64,000 bases of DNA from Candidatus Kaiserbacteria bacterium (GTDB lineage Bacteria > Patescibacteriota > Minisyncoccia > Phycocordibacterales > Phycocordibacteraceae). The notes beneath the pieces are model-generated. The model saw only the letters and a program-made list of their open reading frames with translations. It had not been told where the DNA came from and did not search any database. Positions within the stretch are counted from its first letter, which is position 1. Each line of letters starts with the position of its first letter. Made by a program: the position numbers and the translations under genes. Location: the NCBI GenBank assembly GCA_016194455.1, contig JACQBN010000018.1, positions 10,669 to 74,668 on the forward strand, written 5' to 3'. This document shows positions 16,748 through 51,948 of the stretch, piece after piece.

Positions 16748-16750
16748 TGA

Positions 16751-17923: not shown

Positions 17924-17962
17924 GGCGCTAACGCTACTCTAAAAATGGTATTCTCGCACTAC

Positions 17963-25553: not shown

Positions 25554-27299
25554 ATGCATGTGTCTGAAGCAGAACTGAAAGAATTTATTATCGATTCGGG
25601 CCTGGTCGCCAAAAAAGAGATTGACGAGGCGGAGGCGCAGGCGAGGAAGAATAAGCAGCCTCTCGGCAATACACTCGTCGCGCGCGGTGCCCTGTCCGAG
25701 GACGCGCTTCGGCGGATCCAGGCCTATGTGCTTGGCATTCCCTTTGTCGACTTGAAGGAGTACCGCGTGCCTATCGACGTGCTCGCACTCATCCCGGAGC
25801 CCATCGCGCGGACGCACAATATTATTGCGTTCAAAAAGGAGAACGACTCGCTCGAGGTCGCGATGCTTGACGTGGAAGACCTCGCCTCGATTGATTCAGT
25901 ACGCAAGAAGACCGGGCTCAAGATCCTGCCACGCCTCACCGACACGGAGAGCATAAGGCATGCGCTCCTCGAATACCAGAAGTCGCTCAAGGACGAGTTT
26001 GGCGACATCATCTCTGCCGAGGCGGGGAAGATCCGCGTCGTGAATGCGGGCGGCGAGCTCTCCGGTGACGAGCTCAAGAAGATGGCGGAGGATCTGCCGA
26101 TTGTACGCATCGTGGATACGCTCCTGCGGCACGCAATTGTGCAGGGCGCTTCGGATGTTCATATGGAGCCGATGGAGACCGAGGTCCTGATCCGCTACCG
26201 CATTGACGGCATCCTCCATGATGCGATGACGCTGCCGAAGGCCGCTGCGGCGGGCATCGTCGCGCGTATCAAGGTGCTCTCCAATTTGAAACTCGACGAG
26301 AAGCGTCTGCCGCAGGACGGCCGCTTCAAGATGGAGACCGAGGCGGACAGAGTCTCCTTCCGCGTCTCGATACTCCCGACCTTCTACGGCGAGAAGGTGG
26401 TCATGCGACTCTTGCGCGAGACGGGCGAGGGCTTCACGCTCGATGCGCTCGGCTTCCATGGCGAAGGCCTTGAACGCATCCACCGTGCGCTTAAGCAGAC
26501 GACCGGCATCATTCTTATCTCGGGCCCGACCGGGAGCGGCAAGACAACGACGCTCTACACGATGCTCGATATCCTCAATACGCCTGACGTGAATATTTCT
26601 ACAATTGAAGACCCGATTGAATACCAAATGAAGCGCATCAATCAGACGCAGGTGAATCCGCAGATCGGCTTCACCTTTGCGAACGGACTCCGCTCCCTCG
26701 TGCGCCAGGATCCGGACATCGTCATGGTCGGCGAGATCCGCGATGGCGAGACGGCTTCGCTCGCGATCAATGCCGCACTCACCGGCCACCTCGTGCTCTC
26801 CACCATCCACACCAACTCGGCGGCGGGCGCGATCCCGCGCCTCATCGATATGGGTGTTGAGCCCTTCCTCCTCGTCTCTACCGTCCGGGTGGTCGTCGGC
26901 CAACGCCTGGTGCGGAAGCTCACGGAAAGCAAGAAACAGTACACGCTCTCCAAGACCGAGCGCGCAAAGGTCGCAGACGACGCAGAGTTCTCAACCGCGC
27001 TCGCGGAGCTCAAGGCCGAGAAGCTGGTGAGGGAGAACGTCGGTATCGATGCGCTGCCGTTTTATAAGCCAGCGCCCTCCGCAGACTCCGAGGACGGCTA
27101 CAAGAGTCGCATCGGCATCCACGAGATTCTCGGCGTCTCCCCCGCGATTCGCGACATCATCCTACACTCAAGCACGAGTGATGCCTTGGAGACGCAGGCG
27201 AAGAAGGAGGGCATGCTCACGATGCTCGAAGACGGCATCTACAAGGCAGCGCGCGGCATCACCTCGCTTGAGGAGGTTCTCCGCGCCGTGACGGAATAA
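25554..27299 (+). CDS. pilB: type IV pilus assembly ATPase PilB / GspE family
   Basis: GspE N-terminal domain, Walker A SGPTGSGKTTT, Asp and His boxes, Walker B IVMVGEIRD. Confidence 0.9.
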   Translation: MHVSEAELKEFIIDSGLVAKKEIDEAEAQARKNKQPLGNTLVARGALSEDALRRIQAYVLGIPFVDLKEYRVPIDVLALIPEPIARTHNIIAFKKENDSLEVAMLDVEDLASIDSVRKKTGLKILPRLTDTESIRHALLEYQKSLKDEFGDIISAEAGKIRVVNAGGELSGDELKKMAEDLPIVRIVDTLLRHAIVQGASDVHMEPMETEVLIRYRIDGILHDAMTLPKAAAAGIVARIKVLSNLKLDEKRLPQDGRFKMETEADRVSFRVSILPTFYGEKVVMRLLRETGEGFTLDALGFHGEGLERIHRALKQTTGIILISGPTGSGKTTTLYTMLDILNTPDVNISTIEDPIEYQMKRINQTQVNPQIGFTFANGLRSLVRQDPDIVMVGEIRDGETASLAINAALTGHLVLSTIHTNSAAGAIPRLIDMGVEPFLLVSTVRVVVGQRLVRKLTESKKQYTLSKTERAKVADDAEFSTALAELKAEKLVRENVGIDALPFYKPAPSADSEDGYKSRIGIHEILGVSPAIRDIILHSSTSDALETQAKKEGMLTMLEDGIYKAARGITSLEEVLRAVTE

Positions 27300-27325
27300 T
27301 TGACACGAAAAAAATTCGCAGTAGA

Positions 27326-27682
27326 GTGGTGGCGGAACACAAGTGGGAGGATGGCATGGGCATGCAGCTTGGGATCATTTACTTGCTTTTGGTGTGGCTT
27401 GTGATCGGTGACTGGCTGGGGCCCGTGAATGCATTCACGATTCTCGCCATCGGCATCGCGCTCCTCACGGCGCTCTGCGGCGGGAAGCGACTCGTCCGCA
27501 AGTTCCTCTGCTTCGTCGCGGGGGAACTGCTCGGGATCGCGCTGTGCGTCTCTTTCTATGCCGCGGTCATCGCGCGCGGGGCGGGAGCGCGCGGGGCGTT
27601 TGACGCGGCCCTCGCGCTCGCCGCGGCCGCGTGTATCATCGCACTCCCGGTCGCGTACCGGATCAAGACGCAGCCGCGGTAG
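27326..27682 (+). CDS. hypothetical small polytopic membrane protein
   Basis: 3 predicted TM helices. Sits between pilB and pilC, immediately followed by a strong terminator. Confidence 0.4.
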   Translation: MVAEHKWEDGMGMQLGIIYLLLVWLVIGDWLGPVNAFTILAIGIALLTALCGGKRLVRKFLCFVAGELLGIALCVSFYAAVIARGAGARGAFDAALALAAAACIIALPVAYRIKTQPR

Positions 27683-27720
27683 CCGCGTCCGCCAGCTGGC
27701 GGACGCGGGCTTTCTTTTTT
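27683..27720 (+). terminator. strong rho-independent terminator between pilB unit and pilC
   Basis: Perfect 11-bp stem CCGCGTCCGCC-agct-GGCGGACGCGG followed by gctttctttttt. Confidence 0.7.
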
Positions 27721-27739
27721 GCATGCTAAAATTATATCG

Positions 27740-28951
27740 ATGAAGTTCCGTGTCGTCGTGGGGGGGGAGGGCGAGGGAGAGGAGATGCGCGTTATCGAGG
27801 CGCCCTCGCGCTTCGTCGTGTACGAACAGATACAAAAAGAGGGCAGGACGGTGCTGCAAATCAAAGAAAAAAGTTCTTTCGCGCTTCCTCCGTGGCTTAC
27901 TATGAGCATCGGTTCGGGGGTAAAGAAGCGGGCGATCGTAACGATGGCGAAGAACCTCTCTGCGATGCTCTCCGCCGGACTCTCGCTCTCCCGCGCACTC
28001 TCGGTCATTGAACGACAGTCACCCTCCAAGCGTCTTAAAACGATCTCTGCTGGACTTGGAGAGGCGGTCAAGAGAGGATCGTCGCTCCATGATGCCCTCT
28101 CCGCCTACCCGGCTGTCTTCTCCGGTCTCTTCGTCGCAATGGCGAAGGCGGGCGAGGAATCCGGGACGCTTGCAAACGCACTCTCGGTAGTCGGTCTCCA
28201 GATGGAGCGCTCCGAGGAGCTCCGCCGGAAGATTAAGGGCGCGATGATTTACCCCTCCATCGTGGTCACTGCGATTGTCATCGTCGGCATCCTTATGCTC
28301 GTCTATGTGGTGCCGACCTTGACCAAAACCTTTACCGAACTCGGGGTTGCCGTGCCGCTCACGACCCAGCTCATCGTTGCCGCTTCAAATTTTATGGTTG
28401 CGAACGCGCTCTTTGTGCTCACCGGACTCGTATTCCTTATCCTTGGCGGAGCGATTTTCTTCCGCTCGCGGACGGGGAGCGCGCTGGTGCTCTGGTCTGC
28501 GCTCCGGCTGCCGGTCATCGGAGAACTTGTGCGCGAGACGTATACCGCGCGCGCCGCGCGCACGCTCTCCTCGCTCCTCTCCTCGGGCGTGCCGGTCCTC
28601 GAGGCGCTCGGGATCACGCGCGAGGTGGTCCGGGCGGGCTCCTTCGCTCGCGTTATTGAAGAGGCCCAGGCGCGCGTGAAGAAGGGTGAGCCGCTCTCCG
28701 CGGCGTTTATGGAGCACCCGAAGCTCTATCCTCTCCTTATGAGTGACATGCTCGCGGTAGGCGAGGAAACCGGAAAGCTCGCCGAGATGCTGAAGCAAAT
28801 TGCCGAGTTCTACGAGGGTGACGTGGCAGAGAAAACGAAAGACCTTTCTACGGTTATCGAACCAGTTTTGATGCTCCTCATCGGCGCGGTGGTGGGCGTC
28901 TTCGCCGTCTCCATGATCGCGCCGATTTACTCGCTCTCGTCCGCGATTTAA
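27740..28951 (+). CDS. pilC: type IV pilus inner-membrane platform protein PilC / GspF family
   Basis: Two T2SS-F domains. Start set at ATG (MKFRVVV); the track starts at an upstream TTG. Confidence 0.85.
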   Translation: MKFRVVVGGEGEGEEMRVIEAPSRFVVYEQIQKEGRTVLQIKEKSSFALPPWLTMSIGSGVKKRAIVTMAKNLSAMLSAGLSLSRALSVIERQSPSKRLKTISAGLGEAVKRGSSLHDALSAYPAVFSGLFVAMAKAGEESGTLANALSVVGLQMERSEELRRKIKGAMIYPSIVVTAIVIVGILMLVYVVPTLTKTFTELGVAVPLTTQLIVAASNFMVANALFVLTGLVFLILGGAIFFRSRTGSALVLWSALRLPVIGELVRETYTARAARTLSSLLSSGVPVLEALGITREVVRAGSFARVIEEAQARVKKGEPLSAAFMEHPKLYPLLMSDMLAVGEETGKLAEMLKQIAEFYEGDVAEKTKDLSTVIEPVLMLLIGAVVGVFAVSMIAPIYSLSSAI

Positions 28952-28952
28952 T

Positions 28953-29438
28953 ATGCGCTTCGCGCGTCAGCCACAAGGATTCTCGCTCATTGAGATCGTT
29001 ATCACGCTTTTCATCGTCGGCGTTACGCTCGTCCTGCTACAAACCGTGCCGCGCAATCTCACGCTTGTGCGCCTCGCGAAAGATCAGGACATCGCGCTCC
29101 GAATTGTGGATTCGGAACTGGAGGTGCTGCGCGCCGGCGGCTACGCCGCATTACCCGCGAGCGGCTCCTTCTCGGCTTCCCAGCTCGCCTTGCTGCCGTC
29201 GGGTTCCGGGTCGCTCGCCGTTTCTGACTTCAACACAAAGACGAAGCAAGTGGTGGCCACTGTTTCCTGGCAGGAGCCCAGCCGCAGCACTCTTTCTTCG
29301 GTATCGCTCACCACGCTTATCACGCAGGTCGGTGGGCTCTCTGCGAATGGCGGTTCCGGCGCCTCCGGCTCCGGCGGGAGCGGATCCGGAAGCGGGTCGA
29401 ATCCTCCGTCCGGCAGCGGCAACTTAAATCAATTCTGA
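28953..29438 (+). CDS. prepilin-type (class III signal peptide) pseudopilin, Gly/Ser-rich C-terminus
   Basis: QG^FSLIEIVITLFIVGV cleavage/methylation motif. Confidence 0.75.
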   Translation: MRFARQPQGFSLIEIVITLFIVGVTLVLLQTVPRNLTLVRLAKDQDIALRIVDSELEVLRAGGYAALPASGSFSASQLALLPSGSGSLAVSDFNTKTKQVVATVSWQEPSRSTLSSVSLTTLITQVGGLSANGGSGASGSGGSGSGSGSNPPSGSGNLNQF

Positions 29439-29441
29439 AAA

Positions 29442-29993
29442 ATGCAAAACTTTGGTTTTACCTTGCTCGAGACCGTGATCACCATCGCTCTTTCCACCGT
29501 GATGATCCTCATTCTCGCGGGGCTCGCCTACAACTTCTCCTTCGTCTTTTCCTATCAGCAGAATGCGACGCAGGTGGCGGGCGGAGCGGGCCGCGTCGCG
29601 AGCGAGACGGATGCGCTCATCCGCGGCGCGAGCCAAGTCCTCTCTTCGCACACCATCGCGGGCACGACCTACACCTCCGGCGCGGGGGCGCTCGTGCTCG
29701 CGCTGCCCTCCATCGACAGCTCCGGCGCTGTGATCGCGGGCAAGAGTGATTACGCGGTTGTCTACGCGAGCAGCACGAGCGCGTATCGGCTCGTGGCGGC
29801 GGACGCCGCGAGCAGCCGCGTCTCCGGCACAAAACTGCTGACGAACAATCTTCTAGCGCTCGCTTTCGCCTTCGACAACACCGACTTCACCCAGGTGAAA
29901 GGCGTCGGAGTCGACATAAAGACCGAAACGAAGACTAAGCAGCAGACTCTCGATGAGCACCGCTACCAGGTTACCTATCTGCGCAACCACTAA
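29442..29993 (+). CDS. prepilin-type pseudopilin
   Basis: N-terminus MQNFG^FTLLETVITIAL. Confidence 0.7.
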   Translation: MQNFGFTLLETVITIALSTVMILILAGLAYNFSFVFSYQQNATQVAGGAGRVASETDALIRGASQVLSSHTIAGTTYTSGAGALVLALPSIDSSGAVIAGKSDYAVVYASSTSAYRLVAADAASSRVSGTKLLTNNLLALAFAFDNTDFTQVKGVGVDIKTETKTKQQTLDEHRYQVTYLRNH

Positions 29994-29996
29994 TCT

Positions 29997-31325
29997 ATGA
30001 CTCCCCGCGCACCACTCCGAGCACGCGGTCAGATTCTCATCCTCGCGCTGGTTTTCCTCGCGATATTCCTCTCGGTCGCGATTTCGCTCGTCGGCTATCT
30101 CACGGACTATGCGCGGAGCGAGCGCGTCTCGATTGCGAGCGCGCAGGCGCTTGCGCTCGCCGAGGCCGGTCTCGACGAGGCGGCGTACCAGCTGAACCAA
30201 AACGTGAGCTACGCGGGAGAGAGCGGGACCGCGCTCGGGGCCGGAACCTTCAGCGTAACCGTCGCGAGCGTTGATTCTTCCACAAAGAGGGTTACCGCGA
30301 CCGGCTTCGTGCCGTCAAGCCAGCATCCGACGGCGATCAAAACTATCACGGCTGAGGTGGGGTTGAACGCATCAAGCATCTCGTTCCACTACGGCATCCA
30401 GGCGGGGAACGGCGGCTTCAGTTTGAGCAACAGCTCGCAGATTATCGGCAATGTCTTCTCGGGCGGCCCGGTCGTCGGGAGCGGCAATGTGATCTACGGT
30501 GACGTCGTCTCTTCGGGCACGAACGGGCTCGTCTACGGAGTGCACGCAACGAGCAGCGTCTATGCGCACACCATCGGCTCCGCGAGCGCGGCCACGACCG
30601 TCGATGGCAACGCATACTACGTGAACAAGACTAATGCAACCGTCGCCGGGACCCTCTACACGAACAGCCCCGACCAGGGCACGGCGGCCTTGCCAATCTC
30701 CGACGCGCAGATAAGCCAGTGGGAGTCGTACGCCGAGGCGGGTGGCACTATCAGCTCCTGCGATTTCAGCGGCAACTATACGATCTCATCGAGCATGTCG
30801 CTCGGGCCGAAGAAGATCGCCTGCAACCTTGTGATCAAGAGCTCCTCGGGGGTGTTGACCGTTACTGGCCCGCTCTGGGTCACCGGCAACATCACCACCC
30901 AGACTGGCCCGACGATTAAGATGGACTCCGCGCTCGGCAGCACCAACGTCGCTATCATCGCGGACAAACCGACGAATACGACCGGGAGCGGGGTTATCAC
31001 GGTCGGGCAGAGCACGGTATTCCAAGGCTCGGGAGCGCAGGGTTCGTTCGTCTTCCTTATTTCGCAGAACAACAGTGCGGAGGCGGGCGGAGCGGTAGTC
31101 GCGCTTTCGCTCAACCAGGGAGCCTCCGCGCTCGTGGCCTACGCGAGCCATGGCCTCGCGAGCTTGAGCCAGAGCGTGAACGTCAAGGAAGTTACTGCCT
31201 ACAAAATAGCCCTGACCCAATCCGCGAGCGTCACCTATGATACCGGGCTGCCGAACACTATATTCCAGTCCGGACCGGGCGGCTCCTGGGACTTCGTCCC
31301 CGGAACCTACGCGATTGCGCGCTAA
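29997..31325 (+). CDS. large pilus-associated protein (PilX/minor-pilin-like N-terminal hydrophobic segment)
   Basis: N-terminal RARGQILILALVFLAIFLSVAISLVGYL followed by a long Ser/Thr/Gly-rich beta-type region. Same operon as the pseudopilins. Confidence 0.5.
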   Translation: MTPRAPLRARGQILILALVFLAIFLSVAISLVGYLTDYARSERVSIASAQALALAEAGLDEAAYQLNQNVSYAGESGTALGAGTFSVTVASVDSSTKRVTATGFVPSSQHPTAIKTITAEVGLNASSISFHYGIQAGNGGFSLSNSSQIIGNVFSGGPVVGSGNVIYGDVVSSGTNGLVYGVHATSSVYAHTIGSASAATTVDGNAYYVNKTNATVAGTLYTNSPDQGTAALPISDAQISQWESYAEAGGTISSCDFSGNYTISSSMSLGPKKIACNLVIKSSSGVLTVTGPLWVTGNITTQTGPTIKMDSALGSTNVAIIADKPTNTTGSGVITVGQSTVFQGSGAQGSFVFLISQNNSAEAGGAVVALSLNQGASALVAYASHGLASLSQSVNVKEVTAYKIALTQSASVTYDTGLPNTIFQSGPGGSWDFVPGTYAIAR

Positions 31326-33248: not shown

Positions 33249-33664
33249 CCCAGTTTTGCTCTGATTTTTTCTGCAATCTTTGCCGCTTCGCCCTCTGGAT
33301 AATTTTTACCGTGCCAGAGCTCATAGCCATCGTTCAGGAAGCGCGGCATCACATGCACATGCGCGTAGAAGACGACTTGCCCGGCCGCAGGAGAATTGTT
33401 CATTCCGATGTTGATGCCGTCCGCGCCAACCGCGTCCTTTATAACAGGCGCGAGCTTGTGGGCGGCGCGCATAAGGGCGGCGAAAGCGTTTGCATCGATG
33501 TCGAAAATGCTTTTCGCAAATTTCTTCGGCACCACGAGCGTGTGGCCGGGGTTCATGGGCTGGATATCGAGGAACGCGAGCGTCTCCGCATCCTCGTAGA
33601 TGATCTCGGCCGGGATCTCGCGGCGAATAATTTTATGAAAAACTGTCTCCTCCATGCCGGCCAT
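33245..33664 (-). CDS. HIT family hydrolase (canonical histidine triad)
   Basis: HVHVHVMPR motif. Confidence 0.85.
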   Translation of the reverse strand: MAGMEETVFHKIIRREIPAEIIYEDAETLAFLDIQPMNPGHTLVVPKKFAKSIFDIDANAFAALMRAAHKLAPVIKDAVGADGINIGMNNSPAAGQVVFYAHVHVMPRFLNDGYELWHGKNYPEGEAAKIAEKIRAKLG

Positions 33665-33692
33665 ACTACCATTTCGCTGTTATACTCCGCGC

Positions 33693-34112
33693 ATGCAATT
33701 CACCATCCATGCCGACGGAGGCGCGCGCGGCAATCCGGGGCCCGCGGGCGCCGGCGCAGTCATTCGCGACGAGCTTGGCACCATCATCGGCTCGGTTTCT
33801 AAATTTCTTGGGCATCAGACCAACAACTTTGCAGAATACGAAGCGGTAATCGCCGCGCTTGAAGAACTTTTTACTCTCGTGCCCGCAGGGAAACGCGCAG
33901 CGACGCAAGTGGTGGTGAAGATGGACAGCGAGCTTGTGGTGAAGCAGATGAATCGGGAATATAAAGTCAAACATCCGAACCTCAAGGCGCAGCACGCGCG
34001 GCTTATACAGCTGGCAGGCGCCTTCACCTCCGTCTCCTTCGTCCACGTCCCGCGCGAACAGAACAGCGACGCCGACCAGCTCGCGAACGACGCGATGGAT
34101 AGGGGAGCATGA
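33693..34112 (+). CDS. rnhA: ribonuclease HI
   Basis: MQFTIHADGGARGNPGPAG ... NNFAEYEA ... DADQLAN catalytic DEDD pattern. Start trimmed to MQFT. Confidence 0.8.
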   Translation: MQFTIHADGGARGNPGPAGAGAVIRDELGTIIGSVSKFLGHQTNNFAEYEAVIAALEELFTLVPAGKRAATQVVVKMDSELVVKQMNREYKVKHPNLKAQHARLIQLAGAFTSVSFVHVPREQNSDADQLANDAMDRGA

Positions 34113-35608
34113 GCGGGTTCGTCGCGGTGCTCGGCGGGTTCGCGAGCGGAGTGTTGCTCCGCTCACTTTTCGTACTGGGCTGGCCGGTCATTGTGTTTGT
34201 TTTGCTGTTGGCAGCGCTCTGCGGCGCTGCGGCGTTCCTCCAGCCGCGCCGAGCGAGTACGCTCGGCGCGGTATTTTTTATATTCCTTGCACTCGGGATA
34301 GTGCGCGCATCGCTTGCCGACACGCCGCTCCCCACGCCCTTCGCGGCGAGCGTCAAGGAACGCGTTTCCTATGAGGGCATCGTTGTCGCCGATCCGGACC
34401 TGCGCGACGCGAACCAGAGTGTTGAAGTCCGCGTGCGGCAGGGCGACGCTTCAACAATCATGTTGGCGATTGCTTCGCGCACCCCGATCGTGCGCGTGGG
34501 CGAGCGCGTGCGCGTCTCCGGCACGCTTGAGGCGCCCGAGGCGTTCGCGGATGATAACGGCCGCGTATTTCATTATGATAAATATCTGGAGCGCGAGGGA
34601 GTACGCTTTATACTCAACTTTTCTTTCATCCGCGTGGAGGCGCCCGCGCCCTGGTACTCGCTGCCGGCTGCGCTTGCACGGGTAAAGCACACATTCCTCA
34701 ACGGCATTGCGGCGACTCTGCCCGAGCCCGATGCGTCCTTGGCCGGCGGCGTTGTGATTGGCGGGAAGTCGGGGCTCGGGAGCGATTTGCAGAGGGCATT
34801 TGCACGCTCTGGCCTCGTGCAGATCATTGTGCTCTCCGGCTACAACGTGATGGTCGTCGCCGAGTGGGTGATGTACGGCGTTGGCCTGTTCGCTCTACCG
34901 CGCCGATGGTCGGCGGCTGCGGGGGTTCTCGCCCTGCTTCTCTTCGTCGGGGTCGCGGGTGCGTCCGCTACCACGCTTCGCGCCGGGCTTATGGCGCTCA
35001 TCGCGCTCTACGCTCGGGCGACCGGCCGCTCCTACGCGGCCGGTCGCGCGCTCCTCGCCGTCGTCCTCCTCATGCTGCTTTATAATCCGCTCCTGCTTGC
35101 GTTTGATCCTGGCTTCGGGCTGTCGGTGGCGGCGACTGCGGGTCTCATTTGGCTTGCCCCGCGCATCGAGCCTTTATTTTCATTCGTGAAAAATCTTTTC
35201 TGGAAAAACGCGATTGCGACGACGCTTGCCGCACAAGTTGCCGTGCTCCCGCTCCTTCTTTACGACACCGGCACTCTCTCCTTGGTAGCTATCCCCGCCA
35301 ACCTGCTTGCCATGCCGCTCGTGCCTGCGGCAATGGCGTTCTCCGCGCTCGCAGGCCTCGCGGGAATTCTTTTCAGCGCCATCGCGCCCTTGCTCGGCAT
35401 CGTTATTGCGTTCCCCGCGTATCTCGCCATGCGATTCCTCGTCCTCCTTGCAACCGGGAGCACGGCACTCCCGTTTGCCGCGTTCATCCTTCCCGCATTC
35501 CCTTTTGTGCTCGTGCTTGCCGCCTACGCCGCACTTATTTTCTTAGCTTCGTCAAAACGTTTCTCCACGACGCTCCAGTTGAGGTTCGCGAAGAATGCGT
35601 CTACGTAA
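34109..35608 (+). CDS. comEC: ComEC/Rec2 DNA-uptake channel protein (no C-terminal beta-lactamase domain)
   Basis: DUF4131-like N-terminus plus polytopic competence domain. ORF ends before any metallo-beta-lactamase domain. Confidence 0.8.
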   Translation: MSGFVAVLGGFASGVLLRSLFVLGWPVIVFVLLLAALCGAAAFLQPRRASTLGAVFFIFLALGIVRASLADTPLPTPFAASVKERVSYEGIVVADPDLRDANQSVEVRVRQGDASTIMLAIASRTPIVRVGERVRVSGTLEAPEAFADDNGRVFHYDKYLEREGVRFILNFSFIRVEAPAPWYSLPAALARVKHTFLNGIAATLPEPDASLAGGVVIGGKSGLGSDLQRAFARSGLVQIIVLSGYNVMVVAEWVMYGVGLFALPRRWSAAAGVLALLLFVGVAGASATTLRAGLMALIALYARATGRSYAAGRALLAVVLLMLLYNPLLLAFDPGFGLSVAATAGLIWLAPRIEPLFSFVKNLFWKNAIATTLAAQVAVLPLLLYDTGTLSLVAIPANLLAMPLVPAAMAFSALAGLAGILFSAIAPLLGIVIAFPAYLAMRFLVLLATGSTALPFAAFILPAFPFVLVLAAYAALIFLASSKRFSTTLQLRFAKNAST

Positions 35609-36141
35609 CTCTTCTTGTCTGCGGGGACGTAATCAACCATATACGCGTGCTCCCACAGGTCGAGCGCGAGCAGGATCGGGAGCCCCGCGAGCTGGCCGAG
35701 TTCGTGATCGGCGACGAAACTCGTATGCAGAGTCACAGCAACTGGGTCGTAGTAGACGACGACCCACCCAATGCCGCGCGTAAGGGCAACTTCCTTAATA
35801 TGCGCAATAAAGTTCTTGCCGCTGCCATACTTCTCTACCGCCGCCTCCGCGAGCGCAGACTGCGAATCTCCACCCTTCCCTCCCTCAAACTGCGCAAAGT
35901 AATATTCGTGCATGCGCATCCCATCAAACTCAAACGCGAGCCGGCGACGCAGCTCTGCGACGACATAGGGCTCCACGCCGCTCTCCTTCAACTTCTGGAT
36001 CTGCTCCATAATCAAATTCACGTGCTTGACGTACCCCTCATAAAGCGCGAGGTGCACCTTAATCTGTTTCTCCGATAATCCAGTGAGCGTCGGCAGATTG
36101 AACTTTCTTGCAATGTAGGTCATATCCGTAGAATCTAACAT
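35524..36141 (-). CDS. Fe/Mn superoxide dismutase
   Basis: HHxKHH-type N-terminus (VHLALYEGYVKH), DLWEHAYMVDY motif. Confidence 0.9.
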   Translation of the reverse strand: MLDSTDMTYIARKFNLPTLTGLSEKQIKVHLALYEGYVKHVNLIMEQIQKLKESGVEPYVVAELRRRLAFEFDGMRMHEYYFAQFEGGKGGDSQSALAEAAVEKYGSGKNFIAHIKEVALTRGIGWVVVYYDPVAVTLHTSFVADHELGQLAGLPILLALDLWEHAYMVDYVPADKKSYVDAFFANLNWSVVEKRFDEAKKISAA

Positions 36142-36257
36142 GTTTAGGATTAGGCCGTGCGCGGCTACTTGACTTTATAAACCGCATGTGCTATGTTCGA
36201 CAGCAGAGTGTGCTGGTCCTTGCCGAAGGCGAGGAGGCCCTCTCGAGGGAGGACAAA

Positions 36258-36470
36258 ATGGAAAGAGAAAGAACTGAAGCGGAGGTCGCCAGGATCAGGC
36301 GGGAAGCGGCGGCGGCGGCTGAGCGGAATTTCCGCCTCGTTCCAGACAGCGAGGGAGTTGTCTTCCGCCACACATCGGCAACAGAAACGGCAGAAATTCT
36401 CGCCGGGGGACCGAGGGGGACCGAACACTTCGAAGTGTCCCCATATGAGCGAAACTTTCCACACAATTGA
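36258..36470 (+). CDS. candidate small protein (MERERTEAEVARIRRE...); alternatively non-coding
   Basis: Only plus-frame ORF that ends just before the hairpin/T-tract at 36481. Region has overlapping ORFs in several frames. Confidence 0.2.
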   Translation: MERERTEAEVARIRREAAAAAERNFRLVPDSEGVVFRHTSATETAEILAGGPRGTEHFEVSPYERNFPHN

Positions 36471-36480
36471 ACAAGGGACT

Positions 36481-36513
36481 GGGCGGGCGCAACAAGCGCC
36501 CGCCTTTTACTTT
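36481..36513 (+). terminator. rho-independent terminator (possibly bidirectional; best U-tract on plus strand)
   Basis: GGGCGGGCGC-aacaa-GCGCCCGCC followed by TTTTACTTTAAAT. Confidence 0.5.
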
Positions 36514-36520
36514 AAATAAA

Positions 36521-37444
36521 CTACTCCGTGGGTCGTTGGTAGCCGATCTCTTGGGCAAGCTGCGCCTCAAGAACATTGGTCACGGTGCTCTGGCGCGCGA
36601 ACTCGCGCACCTTCGCGTGGTCAAGCTTCATCGTTTGAAATATTCCCTCTATATCCTTCAACGCCTCCTTATAGCAGGCGATCGTCTCCTCTACATGCGG
36701 CTTGGCGGCTCTATCCACCTGCGTCTCTGAGTACCACAGATACGCCTTGAGCTGCTTGCTGATCTGATAGAGGACTGTGAGACCGGTCACCCAGTCGCGC
36801 TGCTTTTCTTCGGTGCCCTCGTGCTCGGCCTCCCGCAGGCGTCCCATTGCTTCGATCGCTCGTTCGCGTTCAACGCCAATCACGACCTTCGGGAGCGCAA
36901 GCATATCGCGCGGCTCGGGCGCTGCCTCCGGGTTGAGCGGTTTGTAATAGGAAAGCTGCGCGAGGCGACCGCCCGTAAGGAGCTTTTCCTTTAAGTCGCG
37001 GATTTTGCCACCGATGTTCTGCGGGTCGGTCGAGAAGGTGATATCGATCGAGAGCCCGATCGGGCGCCCGCCGCGCTGTTCCACGTCCTCGACGTAGAGG
37101 TCAATGCCGTTGCGATAGTCGTCAAAGGGTGTAGTGAGTTGCGCCTTCACCCGTTCGCCGAGCCAGTGCGAGGGGCCATTGAGGCGCTGCTGGAGTACAT
37201 ACTCAAACGCACTCGCGAGAAGCGACTCGTCGTCGTGAACAAATTTTGCTTCAAGGCGTTTTACTTCGGAGCGGTCAGCCGCGAGGCGCTCCGAGCTTTT
37301 TACCTTCGCGAAGTACGAATCTTCCATTGAGAGCCGCTCCTCGTCTCGTCGCAGAGCATAGCTCTCGGCGAGCGCACGCTCGTCCAGGGAAAGTGGCTCC
37401 CGGATAGGCGGCTGCGGCGACTGGCGTAGGGATTCGGGGCGCAT
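36521..37444 (-). CDS. conserved-looking hypothetical protein (307 aa, no recognisable domain)
   Basis: Long intact ORF with normal codon usage. Charged, helical. No motif recognised. Confidence 0.5.
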   Translation of the reverse strand: MRPESLRQSPQPPIREPLSLDERALAESYALRRDEERLSMEDSYFAKVKSSERLAADRSEVKRLEAKFVHDDESLLASAFEYVLQQRLNGPSHWLGERVKAQLTTPFDDYRNGIDLYVEDVEQRGGRPIGLSIDITFSTDPQNIGGKIRDLKEKLLTGGRLAQLSYYKPLNPEAAPEPRDMLALPKVVIGVERERAIEAMGRLREAEHEGTEEKQRDWVTGLTVLYQISKQLKAYLWYSETQVDRAAKPHVEETIACYKEALKDIEGIFQTMKLDHAKVREFARQSTVTNVLEAQLAQEIGYQRPTE

Positions 37445-37467
37445 ACGGGATACTATAGAGCGATAGT

Positions 37468-38178
37468 ATGGCCGAATCGGAGCAGAAAGTGAAGCGGCTC
37501 CTCTTACTCGCGGCTGCGCTCCTTATAGCAGCAAGCTTTTTTATGTACCGAGCGATAGTGGCGCCACGCGAGCTTCGAGTCTTTGTGCCGAACGTCGGGG
37601 CAAAAGGAGATTCTGTTGTAGTAGAAACGCCGAGCGGCAAAACGCTTTTGATCGACGCCGGTCCCGACGCGAGCGTGCTGCGGGCGCTCGGCAGTACGCT
37701 GCCCGAGTGGCGGCGGCGCATCGATGCTGTGGTGCTCACAAGCCCGATCGCTATGGCGAGTGGAGGATTACCGGAGATATTTTATCGTTATCACGTCGAC
37801 GTGCTGTTTCGCTCTGGCGTGCGGGGCTCAAAAAGCACTGAAGCTACTCTCGCCGCGGCGGCAGGTGCGGAGCCTGGGCTCCAACAAGTAGAGCTATCCC
37901 GCGGAGCGCGTCTTACGCTTGGCGATGGTGTTATCGTCGACGTCCTCTGGCCTGGCGCAGATATCGGCGCGATGAAACCGGCGAACTCTGCGCTCGTGCT
38001 CCGTTTCTCCTACGGCACCACTGCTTTTATTATTGAAGAAAATTTATCGCCAGGCGCCGCCGCTTGGCTCGCGACGCTCGATCCGGGCGCGGTTCCCTCG
38101 CCGACTAGTTTATTTATCTCCTCAAGCACACCCGCAGGTGTCTACACATCAAACGGCCGCGAGATTTTAAAAAAGTGA
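37468..38178 (+). CDS. ComEC-type metallo-beta-lactamase-fold protein with degenerate metal-binding motif
   Basis: N-terminal TM, then VGAKGDSVVVETPSGKTLLIDAGPD, which is like the ComEC MBL domain. The expected HxHxDH is replaced by SPIAMASGG. Confidence 0.5.
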   Translation: MAESEQKVKRLLLLAAALLIAASFFMYRAIVAPRELRVFVPNVGAKGDSVVVETPSGKTLLIDAGPDASVLRALGSTLPEWRRRIDAVVLTSPIAMASGGLPEIFYRYHVDVLFRSGVRGSKSTEATLAAAAGAEPGLQQVELSRGARLTLGDGVIVDVLWPGADIGAMKPANSALVLRFSYGTTAFIIEENLSPGAAAWLATLDPGAVPSPTSLFISSSTPAGVYTSNGREILKK

Positions 38179-38179
38179 T

Positions 38180-38422
38180 TTAGAGAACGCCAGCTCGCTT
38201 CAGCGCAGTGTAGGCGCCGTTCTTTTTGATCGTCTTCAAGCCCTTGACCGAGACGTCCACGATGATCGTCTTGCCGATCTCGGGCACATAAATGCGGCGG
38301 CGCTGAAGGTTAGACTTTCGGCGGGTCTTCCCGACCGGGTTAAATTGCGTCGCGCGGGTACGGTTAGAGTACCGCCCGCCTACCTGCGTGCTCTTCCCCG
38401 TGATGTCGCAGCTCCTCGCCAT
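38180..38422 (-). CDS. rpmB: 50S ribosomal protein L28
   Basis: Start trimmed to MARSCDITGKSTQVGG. Matches L28 MSRVCQVTGKRP.. Confidence 0.85.
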   Translation of the reverse strand: MARSCDITGKSTQVGGRYSNRTRATQFNPVGKTRRKSNLQRRRIYVPEIGKTIIVDVSVKGLKTIKKNGAYTALKRAGVL

Positions 38423-38459
38423 AGTCGCCGCATGGTAGCATACGCCGTACCCTACGCCA

Positions 38460-39104
38460 ATGCTGATCGCTCTCACCATCGTCGTGCTCATCTTCTCGAT
38501 TATCGCGCACGAGGTCGCGCACGGCTACGCCGCTGATGCGCTCGGGGACCCGACCGCGCGGCTTGCGGGGCGTCTCACCCTCAACCCGCTGCCGCACCTC
38601 GACTTGATGGGCTCTATCCTTATCCCCGCGCTTCTCATCTTCTCGGGCTCGCCGATCCTCTTCGGCTGGGCGAAGCCGGTGCCCTACAATCCGTTTAATC
38701 TGCGTGGCCCTTGGGGCTTGCCTGCGCAGGCAGGCGAATTCCTCGTCGCGATCGCGGGCGCCGCGACTAACATCGTGCTGGCGATTATTTTCGGCCTCAT
38801 CGCCCGCTGGGCCGGCGGGGCGGGGCTCCCCGCAAGCGCCGTAGCGCTCGCAGGCACCATCGCGTTCGTGAATCTCTTCTTGGGGATGTTCAACCTCATT
38901 CCGTTCCCTCCCTTGGACGGCTTCACCGCACTCCGCTCCGCGCTCCCCTGGGATATCTCCGCCCGCTTCGTCCGCTTTGAAGCCCGGGTCCGCGCTTCGG
39001 GCTCCCTCGCGCTCATCCTCTTCCTGCTCGTCTTCTCCTACGTCCTTGCCAACCCCTTTTTTAATTTGGTCTCCTGGACCTTCCGCCTCATCGTGGGCAG
39101 CTAA
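38460..39104 (+). CDS. site-2 protease family (peptidase M50) membrane metalloprotease
   Basis: HEVAHGYAA HExxH in first TM, polytopic, LDG motif. Confidence 0.7.
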   Translation: MLIALTIVVLIFSIIAHEVAHGYAADALGDPTARLAGRLTLNPLPHLDLMGSILIPALLIFSGSPILFGWAKPVPYNPFNLRGPWGLPAQAGEFLVAIAGAATNIVLAIIFGLIARWAGGAGLPASAVALAGTIAFVNLFLGMFNLIPFPPLDGFTALRSALPWDISARFVRFEARVRASGSLALILFLLVFSYVLANPFFNLVSWTFRLIVGS

Positions 39105-39127: not shown

Positions 39128-39553
39128 CTAGCCGGTGCGTTTGGGGGCGAAGCGGCCGCCGAGGACGATGGCGAGCGTGACGACGCTGTAGATGATGCCG
39201 AGGAGGCGCGCGGCGCCCTCGCGCGAGAGCTCGGTGCCCACCGGCATCGGGATCGGGAAGACGAAGACGAGGAGGGCGGCGGCAATCGGGACGAAGTAAT
39301 AGCTAAACTTAAGCCACCTCTTGAACTCTGTTTCGCTTGCGAAAAAGAGGACAGCCGCGACCAGCGCGAGCCACTCGCCAATGGAGAGAAGAGGCAGGCC
39401 AACATTCACACCAGTATCAACTTGGCAGATCCAAGAGACATTGTCCGCGCCACGACAAAGTCCATATGGTAAGGGGTTGGCGAAAAAAGTGCCGACAAAA
39501 TAAAAAACTGCGGCGATAAGAAGGAGTGAGAGTTTTAGATAGATATTCTTCAT
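39128..39553 (-). CDS. hypothetical polytopic membrane protein
   Basis: 4 hydrophobic segments. No motif. Confidence 0.45.
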   Translation of the reverse strand: MKNIYLKLSLLLIAAVFYFVGTFFANPLPYGLCRGADNVSWICQVDTGVNVGLPLLSIGEWLALVAAVLFFASETEFKRWLKFSYYFVPIAAALLVFVFPIPMPVGTELSREGAARLLGIIYSVVTLAIVLGGRFAPKRTG

Positions 39554-42450: not shown

Positions 42451-42456
42451 GATACT

Positions 42457-42885
42457 ATGATGCTGATGGAATACCAGGTTCCGCAGTTCATCGAGGTCGA
42501 GGACAAGATCGTCGGCCCACTTACCCTGCGGCAGTTCATCTACCTCGCGGGCGCGGGCGGGCTCTGCGTCATTTTCTTCTTCCTCCTGCCCCTTATTTTC
42601 GCTCTTATCCTCTCGGTTCCAGTCGCTGCGCTCGGGGCTGCGCTTGCCTTCTATCGGGTGAATAGCAAACCATTCATCGAGGTGCTCGAGTCGGCCTTTG
42701 GCTACTACACCTCCTCGCATCTCTTCCTCTGGAAGCATCAGGAGCCGAAGGCCGGCGCCGCAGCGGCGCCGGCCCCAACCACCGCTCCCTTGCCCGCGCG
42801 CGGTACGCCGCGGCTCACGCGCGGCAAGCTCTCGGAGCTCTCCTGGTCGCTCGATGTCAAGAAACCAGAGTCGCTCAAGCCCTGA
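42457..42885 (+). CDS. PrgI-family (VirB3-like) T4SS membrane protein
   Basis: N-terminus MEYQVPQFIEVEDKIVGPLTLRQFIYLAG followed by TM helices is the PrgI family signature. Pro/Ala-rich C-terminus. Confidence 0.6.
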   Translation: MMLMEYQVPQFIEVEDKIVGPLTLRQFIYLAGAGGLCVIFFFLLPLIFALILSVPVAALGAALAFYRVNSKPFIEVLESAFGYYTSSHLFLWKHQEPKAGAAAAPAPTTAPLPARGTPRLTRGKLSELSWSLDVKKPESLKP

Positions 42886-45907: not shown

Positions 45908-45911
45908 AAGC

Positions 45912-48004: not shown

Positions 48005-48007
48005 ATT

Positions 48008-51839: not shown

Positions 51840-51948
51840 AAAATATGAAATTTTTTCAACATATTTATCAACGAGTAAGAGCTAAAAACCTTAACATTTA
51901 CGTACTTTTTTGCTTTTCCCCACTATCAACCCCTATAATAAGTACTTC
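51840..51948 (+). promoter_or_regulatory. AT-rich dnaA-dnaN spacer (candidate oriC / DNA unwinding element)
   Basis: ~70% AT in a ~62% GC genome. TTATCAAC and CTATCAAC DnaA-box-like repeats. TATAAT 11 nt before the dnaN ATG. Confidence 0.35.

What the first reader, a model, noticed from the sequence alone, without database searches (positions are those of the whole stretch)
34109..38178. Split ComEC: channel protein lacks the nuclease domain, which is encoded separately 1.8 kb downstream with its catalytic motif degenerated
comEC (34109-35608) ends right after the competence (channel) domain. ORF 37468-38178 has a TM anchor and the ComEC-type beta-lactamase N-terminal signature (GDSVVVETPSGKTLLIDAGPD), but SPIAMASGG replaces the HxHxDH metal site. 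ComM, two PilB-like ATPases, PilC and pseudopilins are also present, so the DNA-uptake route looks intact. Processing of the incoming strand, however, may be non-canonical.
Basis: partly seen in the sequence, partly recalled or inferred. Interest (0 to 1): 0.55.

Follow-up and report, generated by a model that had tools for sequence, protein, structure and literature searches.

The report
Split ComEC with dead nuclease subunit
In this Kaiserbacteria genome the DNA-uptake channel ComEC is split into two genes, and the split-off nuclease half has lost every catalytic residue yet is still conserved across a whole clade, which suggests that this half also has a non-enzymatic job.

Summary
comEC (34109-35608) encodes only the OB fold and the channel. 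ORF 37468-38178 is the missing C-terminal part: transmembrane helix TM11 plus a ComEC-type metallo-beta-lactamase (MBL) domain. Pfam and NCBIfam do not detect it. It matches solved ComEC (PDB 30bt residues 511-709, E=3.7e-7), its model (pLDDT 93) best matches the ComEC nuclease domain 9ic4 (E=4e-14), and its family profile matches intact standalone MBLs (hhalign 100%, E=7e-44). All five metal-ligand positions are substituted (S92, I94, M96, A97, N192). The segment carrying H725/S728 is deleted.

This is not a quirk of one genome. The order RNaseH-comEC-sodA(antisense)-MBL-L28-M50 is conserved across a broad Parcubacteria/Kaiserbacteria group. Distant members keep an intact 285-300 aa standalone MBL. 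The window's clade carries dead versions that shrink stepwise to about 230, 205 and 165 aa, yet stay under purifying selection (dN/dS 0.13-0.26, like comEC). One relative has secondarily re-fused the dead domain to ComEC.

Best reading: a non-catalytic, membrane-anchored ComEC subunit, with strand degradation dispensed with or done by another nuclease. That function is inferred, not shown. I rate it a new variant of a known kind, of moderate interest.

The parts
33654..34112 (+). RNase H-type gene whose stop overlaps the comEC start (ATGA). It is a conserved upstream neighbour of comEC in all relatives. Context, not shown to be functionally linked.
   Evidence: Pfam RVT_3 E=2.3e-24 and RNase_H E=2.3e-12. 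Synteny.
34109..35608 (+). comEC N-terminal piece: two N-terminal TM helices, OB fold (DUF4131) and channel (Competence domain), ending after the TM10/cytoplasmic-helix region. It has no MBL domain.
   Evidence: Pfam DUF4131 and Competence only. TIGR00360 is above its cut-off; TIGR00361 (full-length ComEC) is far below. Aligns to 30bt residues 9-473. 64-74% identical to about 120 relatives, all without Lactamase_B.
35524..36141 (-). Fe/Mn superoxide dismutase gene inserted antisense between the two ComEC halves. Its 3' end overlaps the comEC 3' end by 85 nt (35524-35608).
   Evidence: Pfam Sod_Fe_C E=3.6e-19. Same position in most relatives. An antisense relic survives in L086.
36521..37444 (-). 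307-aa ORF of unknown function. It is a lineage-specific insertion between sodA and the MBL-like gene and is probably not part of the system. Relatives carry other genes, or none, at this spot.
   Evidence: No hit in Pfam, NCBIfam, PHROGs or PDB sequences. The content of this slot varies.
37468..38178 (+). Split-off ComEC C-terminal piece: TM11-equivalent membrane anchor plus a catalytically dead, C-terminally shortened ComEC-type MBL domain.
   Evidence: phmmer to 30bt residues 511-709 (E=3.7e-7) and to 9ic4 (E=7.7e-7). AF2 pLDDT 93.3. Foldseek top hit 9ic4, E=4.1e-14, TMq 0.73. hhalign to intact standalone MBLs 100%, E=6.9e-44.
37498..37554 (+). Membrane anchor LLLLAAALLIAASFFMYRA. It aligns with the helix just before the MBL domain in solved ComEC (TM11 by the paper's naming). 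Basic residues (K7, K9, R10) precede it, which predicts N-in/C-out topology.
   Evidence: TM11 description in PMC13539106.
37738..37767 (+). Remnant of MBL motif II. TSPIAMASGG replaces TH.D.DHIGG: S92, I94, M96 and A97 sit at the positions of H598, D600, D602 and H603.
   Evidence: Mutagenesis of these residues in PMC12455585.
38035..38043 (+). Remnant of MBL motif IV. EEN replaces TGD: N192 sits at the position of metal ligand D700. Downstream, the GHHGS segment (H725/S728) and about 26 further residues are deleted.
38180..39104 (.). Ribosomal protein L28 (38180-38491, -) and an M50 site-2-protease-like gene (38460-39104, +). These are conserved downstream synteny anchors of the MBL gene in all relatives. 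Context only.
   Evidence: Pfam hits. Synteny.
25554..31325 (+). Type IV pilus genes: PilB ATPase, PilC platform, two prepilin-type proteins and a large putative minor pilin. This is the surface part of the DNA-uptake route. Context.
   Evidence: Pfam T2SSE E=5.8e-124, T2SSF E=3.3e-53, N_methyl.

Best explanation
ORF 37468-38178 is the C-terminal third of ComEC, encoded as a separate type-II membrane protein. It consists of the last transmembrane helix (TM11) followed by the extracytoplasmic beta-lactamase-like nuclease domain.

The gene fission lies in the cytoplasmic loop between TM10 and TM11. It is old, and the sodA gene was inserted antisense between the two halves. Distant relatives with the same gene order keep a fully equipped standalone nuclease. 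There ComEC presumably works as a two-subunit protein, with the nuclease supplied as a separate polypeptide.

In the clade that contains this window the split-off subunit has lost all metal ligands and part of the fold, so it cannot be a metallo-nuclease. It is nevertheless kept under purifying selection.

I infer, without direct evidence, that it still assembles with the ComEC channel through TM11 and its ectodomain, and that it serves a non-catalytic role at the outer mouth of the channel, such as scaffold, DNA guide or gate. In that case the non-imported strand is either not degraded by ComEC at all or is degraded by an unrelated nuclease.

Shown: the homology, the fission point, the loss of catalytic residues, the conserved synteny and the purifying selection. 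Inferred: physical association with ComEC, the non-catalytic role, and the fate of the second DNA strand.
For: Homology and fission point. The two ORFs tile solved ComEC 30bt: 9-473 and 511-709. The break falls between TM10/CH1 and TM11, which the cryo-EM paper describes as peripheral helices, with the MBL domain on a flexible linker. The fold is confirmed by AF2 (pLDDT 93.3) and Foldseek (top hit ComEC MBL domain 9ic4, E=4e-14, against about 1e-7 for the next MBL folds). The family profile matches intact standalone MBLs at 100%, E=7e-44.

Catalytic death. S92/I94/M96/A97/N192 replace H598/D600/D602/H603/D700, and the H725/S728 segment is deleted. Single Ala substitutions of H598, D602, H603 or D700 make the Moorella domain virtually inactive (PMC12455585).

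Link to ComEC. RNaseH-comEC-[sodA]-MBL-L28-M50 was found in 16 of the 17 distinct relatives' loci whose sequence reaches upstream; L003 is the exception and L013 is cut at a contig end. In L009-L011 the comEC stop and the dead-MBL start overlap by 4 nt. In L086 the dead domain is fused in frame to ComEC (660 aa), and a SOD C-terminal relic on the antisense strand shows this is a secondary re-fusion.

Selection. dN/dS for the dead gene is 0.13-0.26, against 0.09-0.17 for comEC in the same genome pairs. The best pair, L009-L011, gives 0.14 against 0.13.

Family size. 113 of the best 150 representatives at 50% identity are standalone proteins without the motif.

Coherent clade. ComECs paired with dead MBLs are 64-74% identical to the window's ComEC; those paired with intact MBLs are 36-41% identical.

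Ectodomain charge. Median pI is 4.65 with net charge -19 in intact forms, and 9.0 with net charge +2 in dead forms. This fits a change of role, possibly toward nucleic-acid contact.

Conserved block. The best-conserved block of the dead family (GPDASILRALG..LP.WQR) aligns to the loop of 30bt that holds F572, a residue the cryo-EM paper places at the periplasmic channel entrance.
Against: No direct evidence exists for a ComEC-subunit complex. The only complex-type model I could build, the two window proteins joined in one chain, had low confidence (pLDDT 67, pTM 0.47). The Foldseek PDB copy holds no full-length ComEC to compare it with.

In this window the gene is not co-transcribed with comEC, because two opposite-strand genes lie between them.

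The dead gene evolves faster than its neighbours: 46-54% identity to the window against 64-71% for ComEC. It has shrunk repeatedly, and its GC3 is lower (0.59). All three are signs of relaxed constraint.

In L003 no comEC lies within 6 kb. In L030 the dead gene is in two ORFs.

dS is near saturation in most pairs (1.4-2.3), so the dN/dS values are rough.

No substitute nuclease was identified, and only 64 kb of the genome was visible.
Confidence: 0.62

Rival explanations
1. The dead MBL protein has been recruited to a function unrelated to ComEC, for example another envelope or surface role. It stays near comEC only because gene order in this region (PGK...RNaseH...L28-M50) is generally frozen.
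For: The whole block from PGK to M50 is syntenic, so adjacency alone is weak evidence. The gene stays next to L28-M50 even where comEC is not adjacent (L003). In this window it is a separate transcription unit. The charge reversal and a new conserved C-terminal motif ISSSTPAGVY could mark a new function.
Against: Stop/start overlap with comEC in L009-L011. An in-frame re-fusion to ComEC is tolerated in L086. The TM11-equivalent anchor is retained in all size classes. Intact orthologues in the same slot are clearly ComEC nuclease domains.
Confidence: 0.2
2. The ORF is a functionless relic on its way to loss, in effect a slowly decaying pseudogene left over after the nuclease became dispensable.
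For: Stepwise shrinkage from about 290 to 230, 205 and 165 aa. Faster evolution than neighbouring genes. Lower GC3. A split ORF in L030.
Against: dN/dS is 0.13-0.26, similar to comEC. The reading frame is intact in 14 of 15 distinct dead-form loci and in more than 100 clusters at 50% identity. Blocks are invariant across the family (41 invariant columns in A2). The fold is predicted with confidence. In small, streamlined CPR genomes a useless 0.5-0.7 kb gene would not be expected to persist across such divergence (inference).
Confidence: 0.1
3. The domain is still a hydrolase or nuclease and uses a different set of residues or a metal-independent mechanism.
For: The core of the fold and the motif I Asp (D63 in LLIDAG) are retained. 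For S. pneumoniae, the ComEC paper PMC8579336 leaves open whether conservative substitutions abolish activity.
Against: The substitutions here are not conservative (H to S, D to I, D to M, H to A, D to N), and the segment carrying H725/S728 is missing. The motif II positions are hypervariable across the dead family, which is not the pattern of an active site. The shortest family members lack most of the second beta sheet.
Confidence: 0.04
4. The split is an assembly or annotation artefact: a frameshift or mis-join in a single full-length comEC.
For: The source is a metagenome-assembled genome. L007 shows a comEC broken into two ORFs, so frameshifts do occur in such assemblies.
Against: Two bona fide opposite-strand genes lie between the halves. 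The same arrangement occurs in more than 15 independent assemblies from different studies. All 120 closest ComEC relatives stop at about 500 aa, except the re-fused P0075.
Confidence: 0.01

Closest known systems
Canonical three-domain ComEC/Rec2 (OB fold + Competence channel + C-terminal beta-lactamase-like nuclease), e.g. Moorella/Neomoorella ComEC (PDB 30bt, 9ic4) and B. subtilis ComEC
   Same: The order of modules is the same: N-terminal TM helices, OB fold, channel, TM11, MBL fold. The two window ORFs together align to residues 9-709 of 30bt. The OB-loop aromatic residues (FHYDKYL) are retained. The MBL fold is closest to 9ic4.
   Different: Here it is two polypeptides encoded 1.86 kb apart, with two antisense genes between them. 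The MBL module has none of the five metal ligands that were shown by mutagenesis to be needed for activity, and it lacks about 55 C-terminal residues of the domain.
Standalone TM-anchored ComEC-type MBL proteins of Parcubacteria/Kaiserbacteria (about 285-300 aa; e.g. P0380 from Ca. Kaiserbacteria CG10, P0041, P0323, P0341). JGI names many of them 'competence protein ComEC'; NCBI calls them 'MBL fold metallo-hydrolase'.
   Same: Orthologous genomic slot: RNaseH-comEC(about 503 aa)-sodA(-)-...-MBL-L28-M50. Same N-terminal anchor. 30-34% identity. hhalign 100%.
   Different: These proteins keep TH.D.DHIGG, TGD and GHHGS, which are invariant columns in A7. They reach Pfam Lactamase_B and are strongly acidic (pI about 4.65). 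The window protein has lost all of these features.
[quoted passage not shown] 2019, PMC6744442)
   Same: Taken alone, the window comEC is a textbook DC-profile ComEC, as reported for CPR.
   Different: Those surveys scored domains within the ComEC polypeptide only. Here the 'missing' domain exists as a neighbouring gene, so at least in this CPR group the domain was split off rather than lost. In this subclade it was then inactivated.
Streptococcus pneumoniae ComEC, whose C-terminal domain has substituted metal ligands and where the membrane nuclease EndA degrades the non-transforming strand (discussed in PMC8579336 and PMC12455585)
   Same: It is a precedent for a ComEC MBL domain that is probably inactive yet retained. 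Those authors proposed that it is retained to guide the transported DNA.
   Different: The pneumococcal domain is fused, full-length and carries conservative substitutions (Asn for His, Glu for Asp, Asn for Asp). Here the domain is a separate protein, all ligands are replaced by non-ligand residues, part of the fold is deleted, and no EndA-like partner has been identified.

Membership tests
ComEC/Rec2 channel protein (ORF 34109-35608) | Competence domain (PF03772), the multi-helix DNA channel | tested here: met
   PF03772 E=3.3e-42, residues 216-482, 145 bits against a cut-off of 23. TIGR00360 71 bits against a cut-off of 36.5. Aligns to solved ComEC 30bt.
ComEC/Rec2 channel protein (ORF 34109-35608) | N-terminal OB fold (DUF4131, PF13567) | tested here: met
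   PF13567 E=1.1e-14, 54.9 bits against a cut-off of 31.6.
Full-length three-domain ComEC (TIGR00361 equivalog) | [quoted passage not shown] | tested here: not met
   The ORF ends 17 residues after the Competence match. TIGR00361 scores 65 bits against a cut-off of 190. No MBL is found in any frame downstream before sodA.
[quoted passage not shown] | Specific sequence and structural similarity to the ComEC MBL domain rather than to other MBL folds | tested here: met
   The only PDB sequence hits are ComEC 30bt (E=3.7e-7) and 9ic4 (E=7.7e-7). Foldseek gives 9ic4 at E=4e-14, TMq 0.73, seven orders of magnitude better than the next MBL fold.
[quoted passage not shown] | Preceded by the last transmembrane helix (TM11), placing the domain outside the membrane | tested here: met
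   Residues 11-35 align to 30bt 511-535. Predicted helix at residues 2-31. Kyte-Doolittle maximum 2.1 over residues 13-31. The topology itself is inferred from the positive-inside rule.
[quoted passage not shown] | Genomic or physical linkage to a ComEC channel | tested here: met
   Conserved synteny, stop/start overlap in L009-L011, and a fused form in L086. Physical interaction was not tested.
Metallo-beta-lactamase superfamily enzymes (PF00753 Lactamase_B) | Pfam profile match above the gathering score | tested here: not met
   No Pfam family at E<=0.1 and no NCBIfam family. Most family members also have no precomputed Pfam domain.
Metallo-beta-lactamase superfamily enzymes (PF00753 Lactamase_B) | Alpha-beta/beta-alpha sandwich fold | tested here: met
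   AF2 model with pLDDT 93.3 and alternating strand/helix pattern. 208 PDB matches at E<=0.001; the 50 best listed are all MBL-fold proteins. The C-terminal part of the second sheet is shortened.
Metallo-beta-lactamase superfamily enzymes (PF00753 Lactamase_B) | Motif II H-x-[HD]-x-D-H metal ligands | tested here: not met
   S92-P-I94-A-M96-A97 at the aligned positions.
Metallo-beta-lactamase superfamily enzymes (PF00753 Lactamase_B) | Motif IV bridging Asp (D700 in Moorella ComEC) and the C-terminal His (GHHGS; H725) | tested here: not met
   N192 replaces the Asp. The GHHGS segment is absent. Residue roles are taken from PMC12455585.
Metallo-beta-lactamase superfamily enzymes (PF00753 Lactamase_B) | Metal-dependent hydrolytic activity | not testable with these tools
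   Requires biochemistry. Loss of activity is predicted from the loss of all ligands.
Pseudoenzyme (a catalytically dead homologue retained for a non-catalytic role) | Catalytic residues lost, but the gene maintained by purifying selection across species | tested here: met
   Ligand loss is shown above. dN/dS is 0.13-0.26 in 12 genome pairs, comparable to comEC. 113 dead standalone representatives occur among the best 150. dS is near saturation, so the values are approximate.

The most novel reading that the evidence does not exclude
Two claims together.

First, the ComEC C-terminal domain has a second, non-catalytic function at the channel mouth, such as positioning or guiding DNA, gating, or docking of ComEA or the pilus. 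That function is sufficient on its own. An entire abundant clade of ultra-small CPR bacteria keeps only this function, in a separately encoded and progressively miniaturised subunit (down to about 165 aa), and imports DNA without ComEC-catalysed degradation of the second strand.

Second, many ComECs scored as 'lacking the nuclease domain' in CPR are really two-subunit ComECs whose nuclease is supplied as a separate protein.
Probability: 0.4. Interest if true: 0.7.

Novelty: new variant of a known kind. Interest (0 to 1): 0.52.

Why it matters
How the non-transforming strand is handled by the roughly half of ComEC proteins without a nuclease domain is stated as an open question in the ComEC literature (PMC8579336). 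CPR bacteria have been described as essentially lacking the ComEC-MBL fusion (PMC6744442).

This locus shows that in a large Parcubacteria/Kaiserbacteria group the domain is not missing. It is split off as a TM11-anchored protein in a fixed genomic slot. So domain-content surveys that look only inside the ComEC polypeptide undercount it.

The locus also offers a natural experiment. Sister lineages share the same gene order but carry an intact, a motif-dead, or a heavily truncated nuclease subunit. All stay under selection, and there is one natural re-fusion. This series separates the catalytic role of the ComEC C-terminal domain from any structural role, and it points to a minimal retained core (about 130 ectodomain residues) that could be tested.

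The practical value is limited, because the organisms are uncultivated and the function is inferred.

Tried and rejected
(1) Pfam, NCBIfam and PHROGs on ORF 37468-38178 gave no hits. This reflects low sensitivity, not evidence against homology.

(2) Frameshift or hidden MBL domain in comEC, or elsewhere in the window: rejected.

MAFFT misplaced the short MBL rows when many ComEC-only rows were present. The accepted compromise used the window concatenation, P0075, 6 ComEC rows and 27 dead-MBL rows (A6). It gave pLDDT 67 and pTM 0.47, so the domain arrangement cannot be interpreted. Foldseek on that model found only the isolated MBL domain, and full-length ComEC is not in that library copy.

(4) The search for related loci with the diverse alignment A1 failed for lack of a conserved stretch. 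The narrower alignment A2 worked.

(5) A substitute extracytoplasmic nuclease or a ComEA in the window: none found. Exo_endo_phos (13338-14135), UPF0102 (16238-16633) and the NYN protein (10888-11403) show no sign of export. The rest of the genome was not visible.

(6) The 307-aa ORF between sodA and the MBL gene as a possible partner: no homology anywhere, and it is absent from this slot in relatives. I treat it as an unrelated insertion.

(7) Rfam on the whole window found only four tRNAs.

(8) Literature searches for a described split ComEC, or a dead standalone ComEC MBL, in CPR found nothing. The library does not cover most subscription journals, so prior description cannot be excluded.

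(9) The first dN/dS script timed out and was rerun with a faster aligner.

Full report
ORIGIN AND OBSERVATION. The window matches a metagenome-assembled Candidatus Kaiserbacteria genome. The two proteins are NCBI MBI3572236.1 ('ComEC/Rec2 family competence protein') and MBI3572239.1 ('hypothetical protein HY091_01750') on a 79-kb contig. ORF 34109-35608 (+, 499 aa) carries Pfam DUF4131 (residues 23-170) and Competence (216-482) and nothing else. It reaches the ComEC N-terminal model TIGR00360 but falls far short of the full-length equivalog TIGR00361. It aligns to residues 9-473 of the 801-residue solved ComEC 30bt (E=7e-23). It is followed immediately, with an 85-nt tail-to-tail overlap, by a superoxide dismutase gene on the opposite strand (35524-36141). 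Next comes a 307-aa ORF without any detectable relatives (36521-37444, minus strand), and then ORF 37468-38178 (+, 236 aa). A profile of the MBL family searched against all six frames of the window finds only this last ORF. So there is no hidden or frameshifted nuclease domain in comEC or elsewhere in the 64 kb.

WHAT THE DOWNSTREAM ORF IS. Pfam, NCBIfam and PHROGs give no hit. More specific comparisons settle it.
- phmmer against all PDB sequences returns only ComEC: 30bt residues 511-709 (E=3.7e-7) and the isolated ComEC beta-lactamase-like domain 9ic4 (E=7.7e-7).
- An AlphaFold2 model built on 29 relatives is confident (pLDDT 93.3, pTM 0.87).
- The best structural match of that model in the PDB is 9ic4 (Foldseek E=4e-14, TM 0.73). 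Other MBL folds such as RNase J and phosphodiesterases follow at about 1e-7.
- A profile of the closest relatives matches a profile of intact standalone MBL proteins with 100% probability, E=7e-44.
The alignment to 30bt starts inside the membrane. Residues 11-35 of the ORF, a single hydrophobic helix preceded by K7, K9 and R10, align to residues 511-535 of 30bt, directly upstream of the MBL domain. By the helix naming of the cryo-EM paper I take this to be TM11. Together the two ORFs therefore tile a canonical ComEC. The break lies in the cytoplasmic loop between TM10 and TM11. That paper describes these helices as peripheral, with a short cytoplasmic helix between them and a flexible connection to the nuclease domain (PMC13539106). 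A break there gives two topologically self-consistent membrane proteins (inference from the positive-inside rule).

CATALYTIC DEATH. In the Moorella enzyme the metal-coordinating residues are H598, D600, D602, H603 and D700. H725 and S728 contact the substrate. Alanine substitutions of H598, D602, H603 or D700 make the domain virtually inactive (PMC12455585). In the window protein the aligned positions are S92, I94, M96, A97 and N192. The segment that holds GHHGS, plus about 26 further residues, is deleted. Only the structural motif I Asp (D63 in LLIDAG) and fold-determining residues remain. Across the dead family the former motif II positions are hypervariable, which argues against an alternative active site at that place.

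COMPARATIVE GENOMICS. I examined one representative-genome scan and contig look-ups.
- The order (PGK-HIT-...)-RNaseH-comEC-[sodA, antisense]-MBL-L28(antisense)-M50 protease recurs in 16 of the 17 distinct relatives' loci whose sequence reaches upstream. The MAGs are labelled Kaiserbacteria, Adlerbacteria, Parcubacteria, Paceibacterota or Minisyncoccota.
- Four distinct loci (L004 with its duplicate L005, L087, L088, L089) carry an intact 288-293 aa MBL in this slot, with TH.D.DHIGG, TGD and GHHGS. One of them is from a named Kaiserbacteria MAG. Their ComECs are only 36-41% identical to the window's.
- Intact standalone proteins of this kind are numerous. There are 5,091 hits at E<=1e-10 to P0041. 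The best 120 are all 276-338 aa, and JGI names many of them 'competence protein ComEC'.
- Every locus whose ComEC is 64-74% identical to the window's carries a dead MBL. All 120 closest ComEC relatives lack Lactamase_B. This fits a single inactivation in the ancestor of the clade, although I did not build a tree.
- The dead proteins fall into size classes of about 230 aa (the window, L006), about 205 aa (L001, L003) and about 165 aa (most others).
- An exhaustive profile search of 1.84 billion representatives gave 107 hits at E<=1e-30. Among the best 150 there were 113 standalone proteins without the motif, 30 intact standalone proteins and 7 fused full-length ComECs. Of the 113, 24 are full-size 'motif-dead' intermediates.

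FISSION, INSERTION AND RE-FUSION. sodA lies between the halves in both the intact-MBL and the dead-MBL lineages, so the split-plus-insertion state is ancestral to the whole group. In L009-L011 sodA is absent and the comEC stop overlaps the dead-MBL start by 4 nt. In L086 (GCA_023264495.1) a single 660-aa ORF joins ComEC, the TM11 helix and a dead MBL. The antisense strand of its linker still encodes the last ~30 residues of SOD (tblastn E=1e-8). This is therefore a secondary in-frame re-fusion produced by deletion of sodA. Such a fusion would be expected to be tolerated if the two polypeptides already sit next to each other in the membrane in the orientation of canonical ComEC (inference). It is a Rosetta-stone type argument for continued association.

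SELECTION. Nei-Gojobori estimates on 12 genome pairs give dN/dS of 0.13-0.26 for the dead gene and 0.09-0.17 for comEC. The least saturated informative pair (L009-L011) gives 0.14 against 0.13. dS is high (1.4-2.3), so these values are approximate, but they are far from neutrality. The dead gene does evolve faster than its neighbours. Identity to the window is 46-54%, against 64-71% for ComEC, 66-76% for SOD and 76-86% for L28. Its GC3 is lower (0.59 against 0.68-0.83). The ectodomain has changed from strongly acidic in intact forms (median pI 4.65, net charge -19) to neutral or basic in dead forms (median pI 9.0, net charge +2; the window protein has pI 7.2 and net charge 0). [quoted passage not shown]

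CONTEXT IN THE WINDOW. The surface and cytoplasmic parts of a DNA-uptake route are present: PilB, PilC and prepilin-type proteins (25554-31325), a second PilB-like ATPase (58184-59863) and a ComM-type ATPase (7806-9386). The comEC channel gene itself is well conserved, including the OB-loop aromatic residues. I found no ComEA and no exported nuclease in the window. The rest of the genome was not available.

MECHANISM AND RIVALS. The best-supported reading is that this is a two-subunit ComEC whose second subunit has become a pseudoenzyme. It is anchored by TM11 beside the channel, has no nuclease activity, and is retained for a structural or DNA-handling role at the channel mouth. The complementary strand is then either left undegraded or cut by an unrelated enzyme. 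The identity, the fission point, the loss of ligands and the selective constraint are shown. The association with ComEC and the non-catalytic role are inferred. My attempt to model the two proteins as one chain gave a low-confidence model (pLDDT 67, pTM 0.47), and the structure library held no full-length ComEC to compare with. That test is inconclusive. I give four rivals:
- Recruitment to a ComEC-independent function (0.2). It is favoured by the generally frozen gene order and by L003, where comEC is not adjacent.
- A functionless decaying relic (0.1). It is disfavoured by dN/dS and by persistence across more than 100 divergent clusters.
- Residual catalysis by other residues (0.04).
- An assembly artefact (0.01).

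COMPARISON WITH WHAT IS KNOWN, AND NOVELTY. ComECs without a nuclease domain are common and well documented (PMC6299819). CPR genomes in particular were reported to lack the fusion almost entirely (PMC6744442). How the second strand is handled in such organisms is described as open (PMC8579336). A probably inactive but retained ComEC C-terminal domain has a precedent in S. pneumoniae, where EndA supplies the nuclease and a DNA-guiding role was suggested for the domain. Standalone ComEC-type MBL proteins are implicitly recognised by annotation pipelines: JGI gives names such as 'competence protein ComEC' and 'beta-lactamase superfamily II metal-dependent hydrolase' even to some dead forms. From memory, the COG system also has separate groups for the N- and C-terminal parts of ComEC. 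I found no paper in the searchable library describing three things: the conserved split-with-sodA architecture in CPR, the clade-wide conversion of the split-off nuclease into a shrinking pseudoenzyme, or the re-fusion. That library omits most subscription journals. I therefore rate the finding as a new variant of a known kind. It would interest specialists in natural transformation and CPR biology, mainly as a natural dissection of catalytic versus structural roles of the ComEC C-terminal domain, and as a caution for domain-content surveys.

Noticed in passing
window 35524-35608: comEC and the antisense sodA overlap tail to tail by 85 nt. Both reading frames are conserved in relatives: the ComEC tail KRFSTTLQLRFAKKAS lies opposite the SOD C-terminus ...NLNWSVVEKRFDEAKKISAA. 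This is an unusually long convergent overlap of two conserved coding sequences.
   Followed up: partly
L086 5001-6983 (GCA_023264495.1): A relative has ComEC and the dead MBL domain in one 660-aa ORF and no sodA. The antisense strand of the linker still encodes the last ~30 aa of SOD (E=1e-8). This indicates a secondary in-frame re-fusion by deletion.
   Followed up: yes
window 33654-34112 / 34109: An RNase H-type gene overlaps the comEC start by ATGA. It is the immediate upstream neighbour of comEC in every relative examined, with intact or dead MBL. It is unknown whether this reflects function or frozen gene order.
   Followed up: partly
window 36142-36520: A 379-bp stretch between sodA and the 307-aa ORF has no credible gene. 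It has a promoter-like site with an extended -10 (36169-36197, +) and a strong GC hairpin with a T-run (36481-36505, +). There is no Rfam hit. It may be a small transcript or a bidirectional terminator.
   Followed up: partly
window 36521-37444 (-): A 307-aa ORF with no hit in Pfam, NCBIfam, PHROGs or PDB sequences. In this genome it sits in the variable slot between sodA and the MBL gene. Its start codon is only 23 nt from the divergent start of the MBL-like ORF.
   Followed up: partly
ORF 37468-38178 and relatives (P0002-P0035 vs P0041, P0313-P0428): The ectodomain charge flips between intact and dead forms. Median pI is 4.65 with net charge -19 in intact forms, and 9.0 with net charge +2 in dead forms. 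The dead forms also share a new conserved C-terminal motif, ISSSTP(A/P)G(V)Y.
   Followed up: partly
window 37468-38178: GC3 of the dead-MBL ORF is 0.59, against 0.68-0.83 for its neighbouring genes. This is consistent with weaker codon-level constraint or lower expression.
   Followed up: no
window 43375-49213, and L001/L086 downstream of M50: Type IV secretion genes are present: a VirB4/TraG-like ATPase and a T4SS pilin in the window, and PrgI and TraC-like proteins in relatives. In relatives they follow the M50 gene directly. In the window a 141-aa membrane ORF and a 1062-aa protein lie between.
   Followed up: no
window 39550-42738 (-): A 1062-aa protein with an LCAT/PGAP1-like alpha/beta-hydrolase core (residues about 486-642) and long flanking regions without family hits. 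It may be a large surface lipase or acyltransferase.
   Followed up: no
L007 3894-5416; L030 5980-6496; L003: Some relatives show broken genes. comEC is in two ORFs in L007. The dead MBL is in two ORFs in L030. In L003 the M50 gene is split, only a fragment of sodA remains, transposase and integrase genes are nearby, and no comEC lies within 6 kb. I could not tell whether these are real decay or assembly errors.
   Followed up: partly
window 15947-18033: Four tRNA genes lie among small ORFs. The window also holds dnaA (50490-51839) and dnaN (51910-53049), so it probably lies near the replication origin.
   Followed up: no
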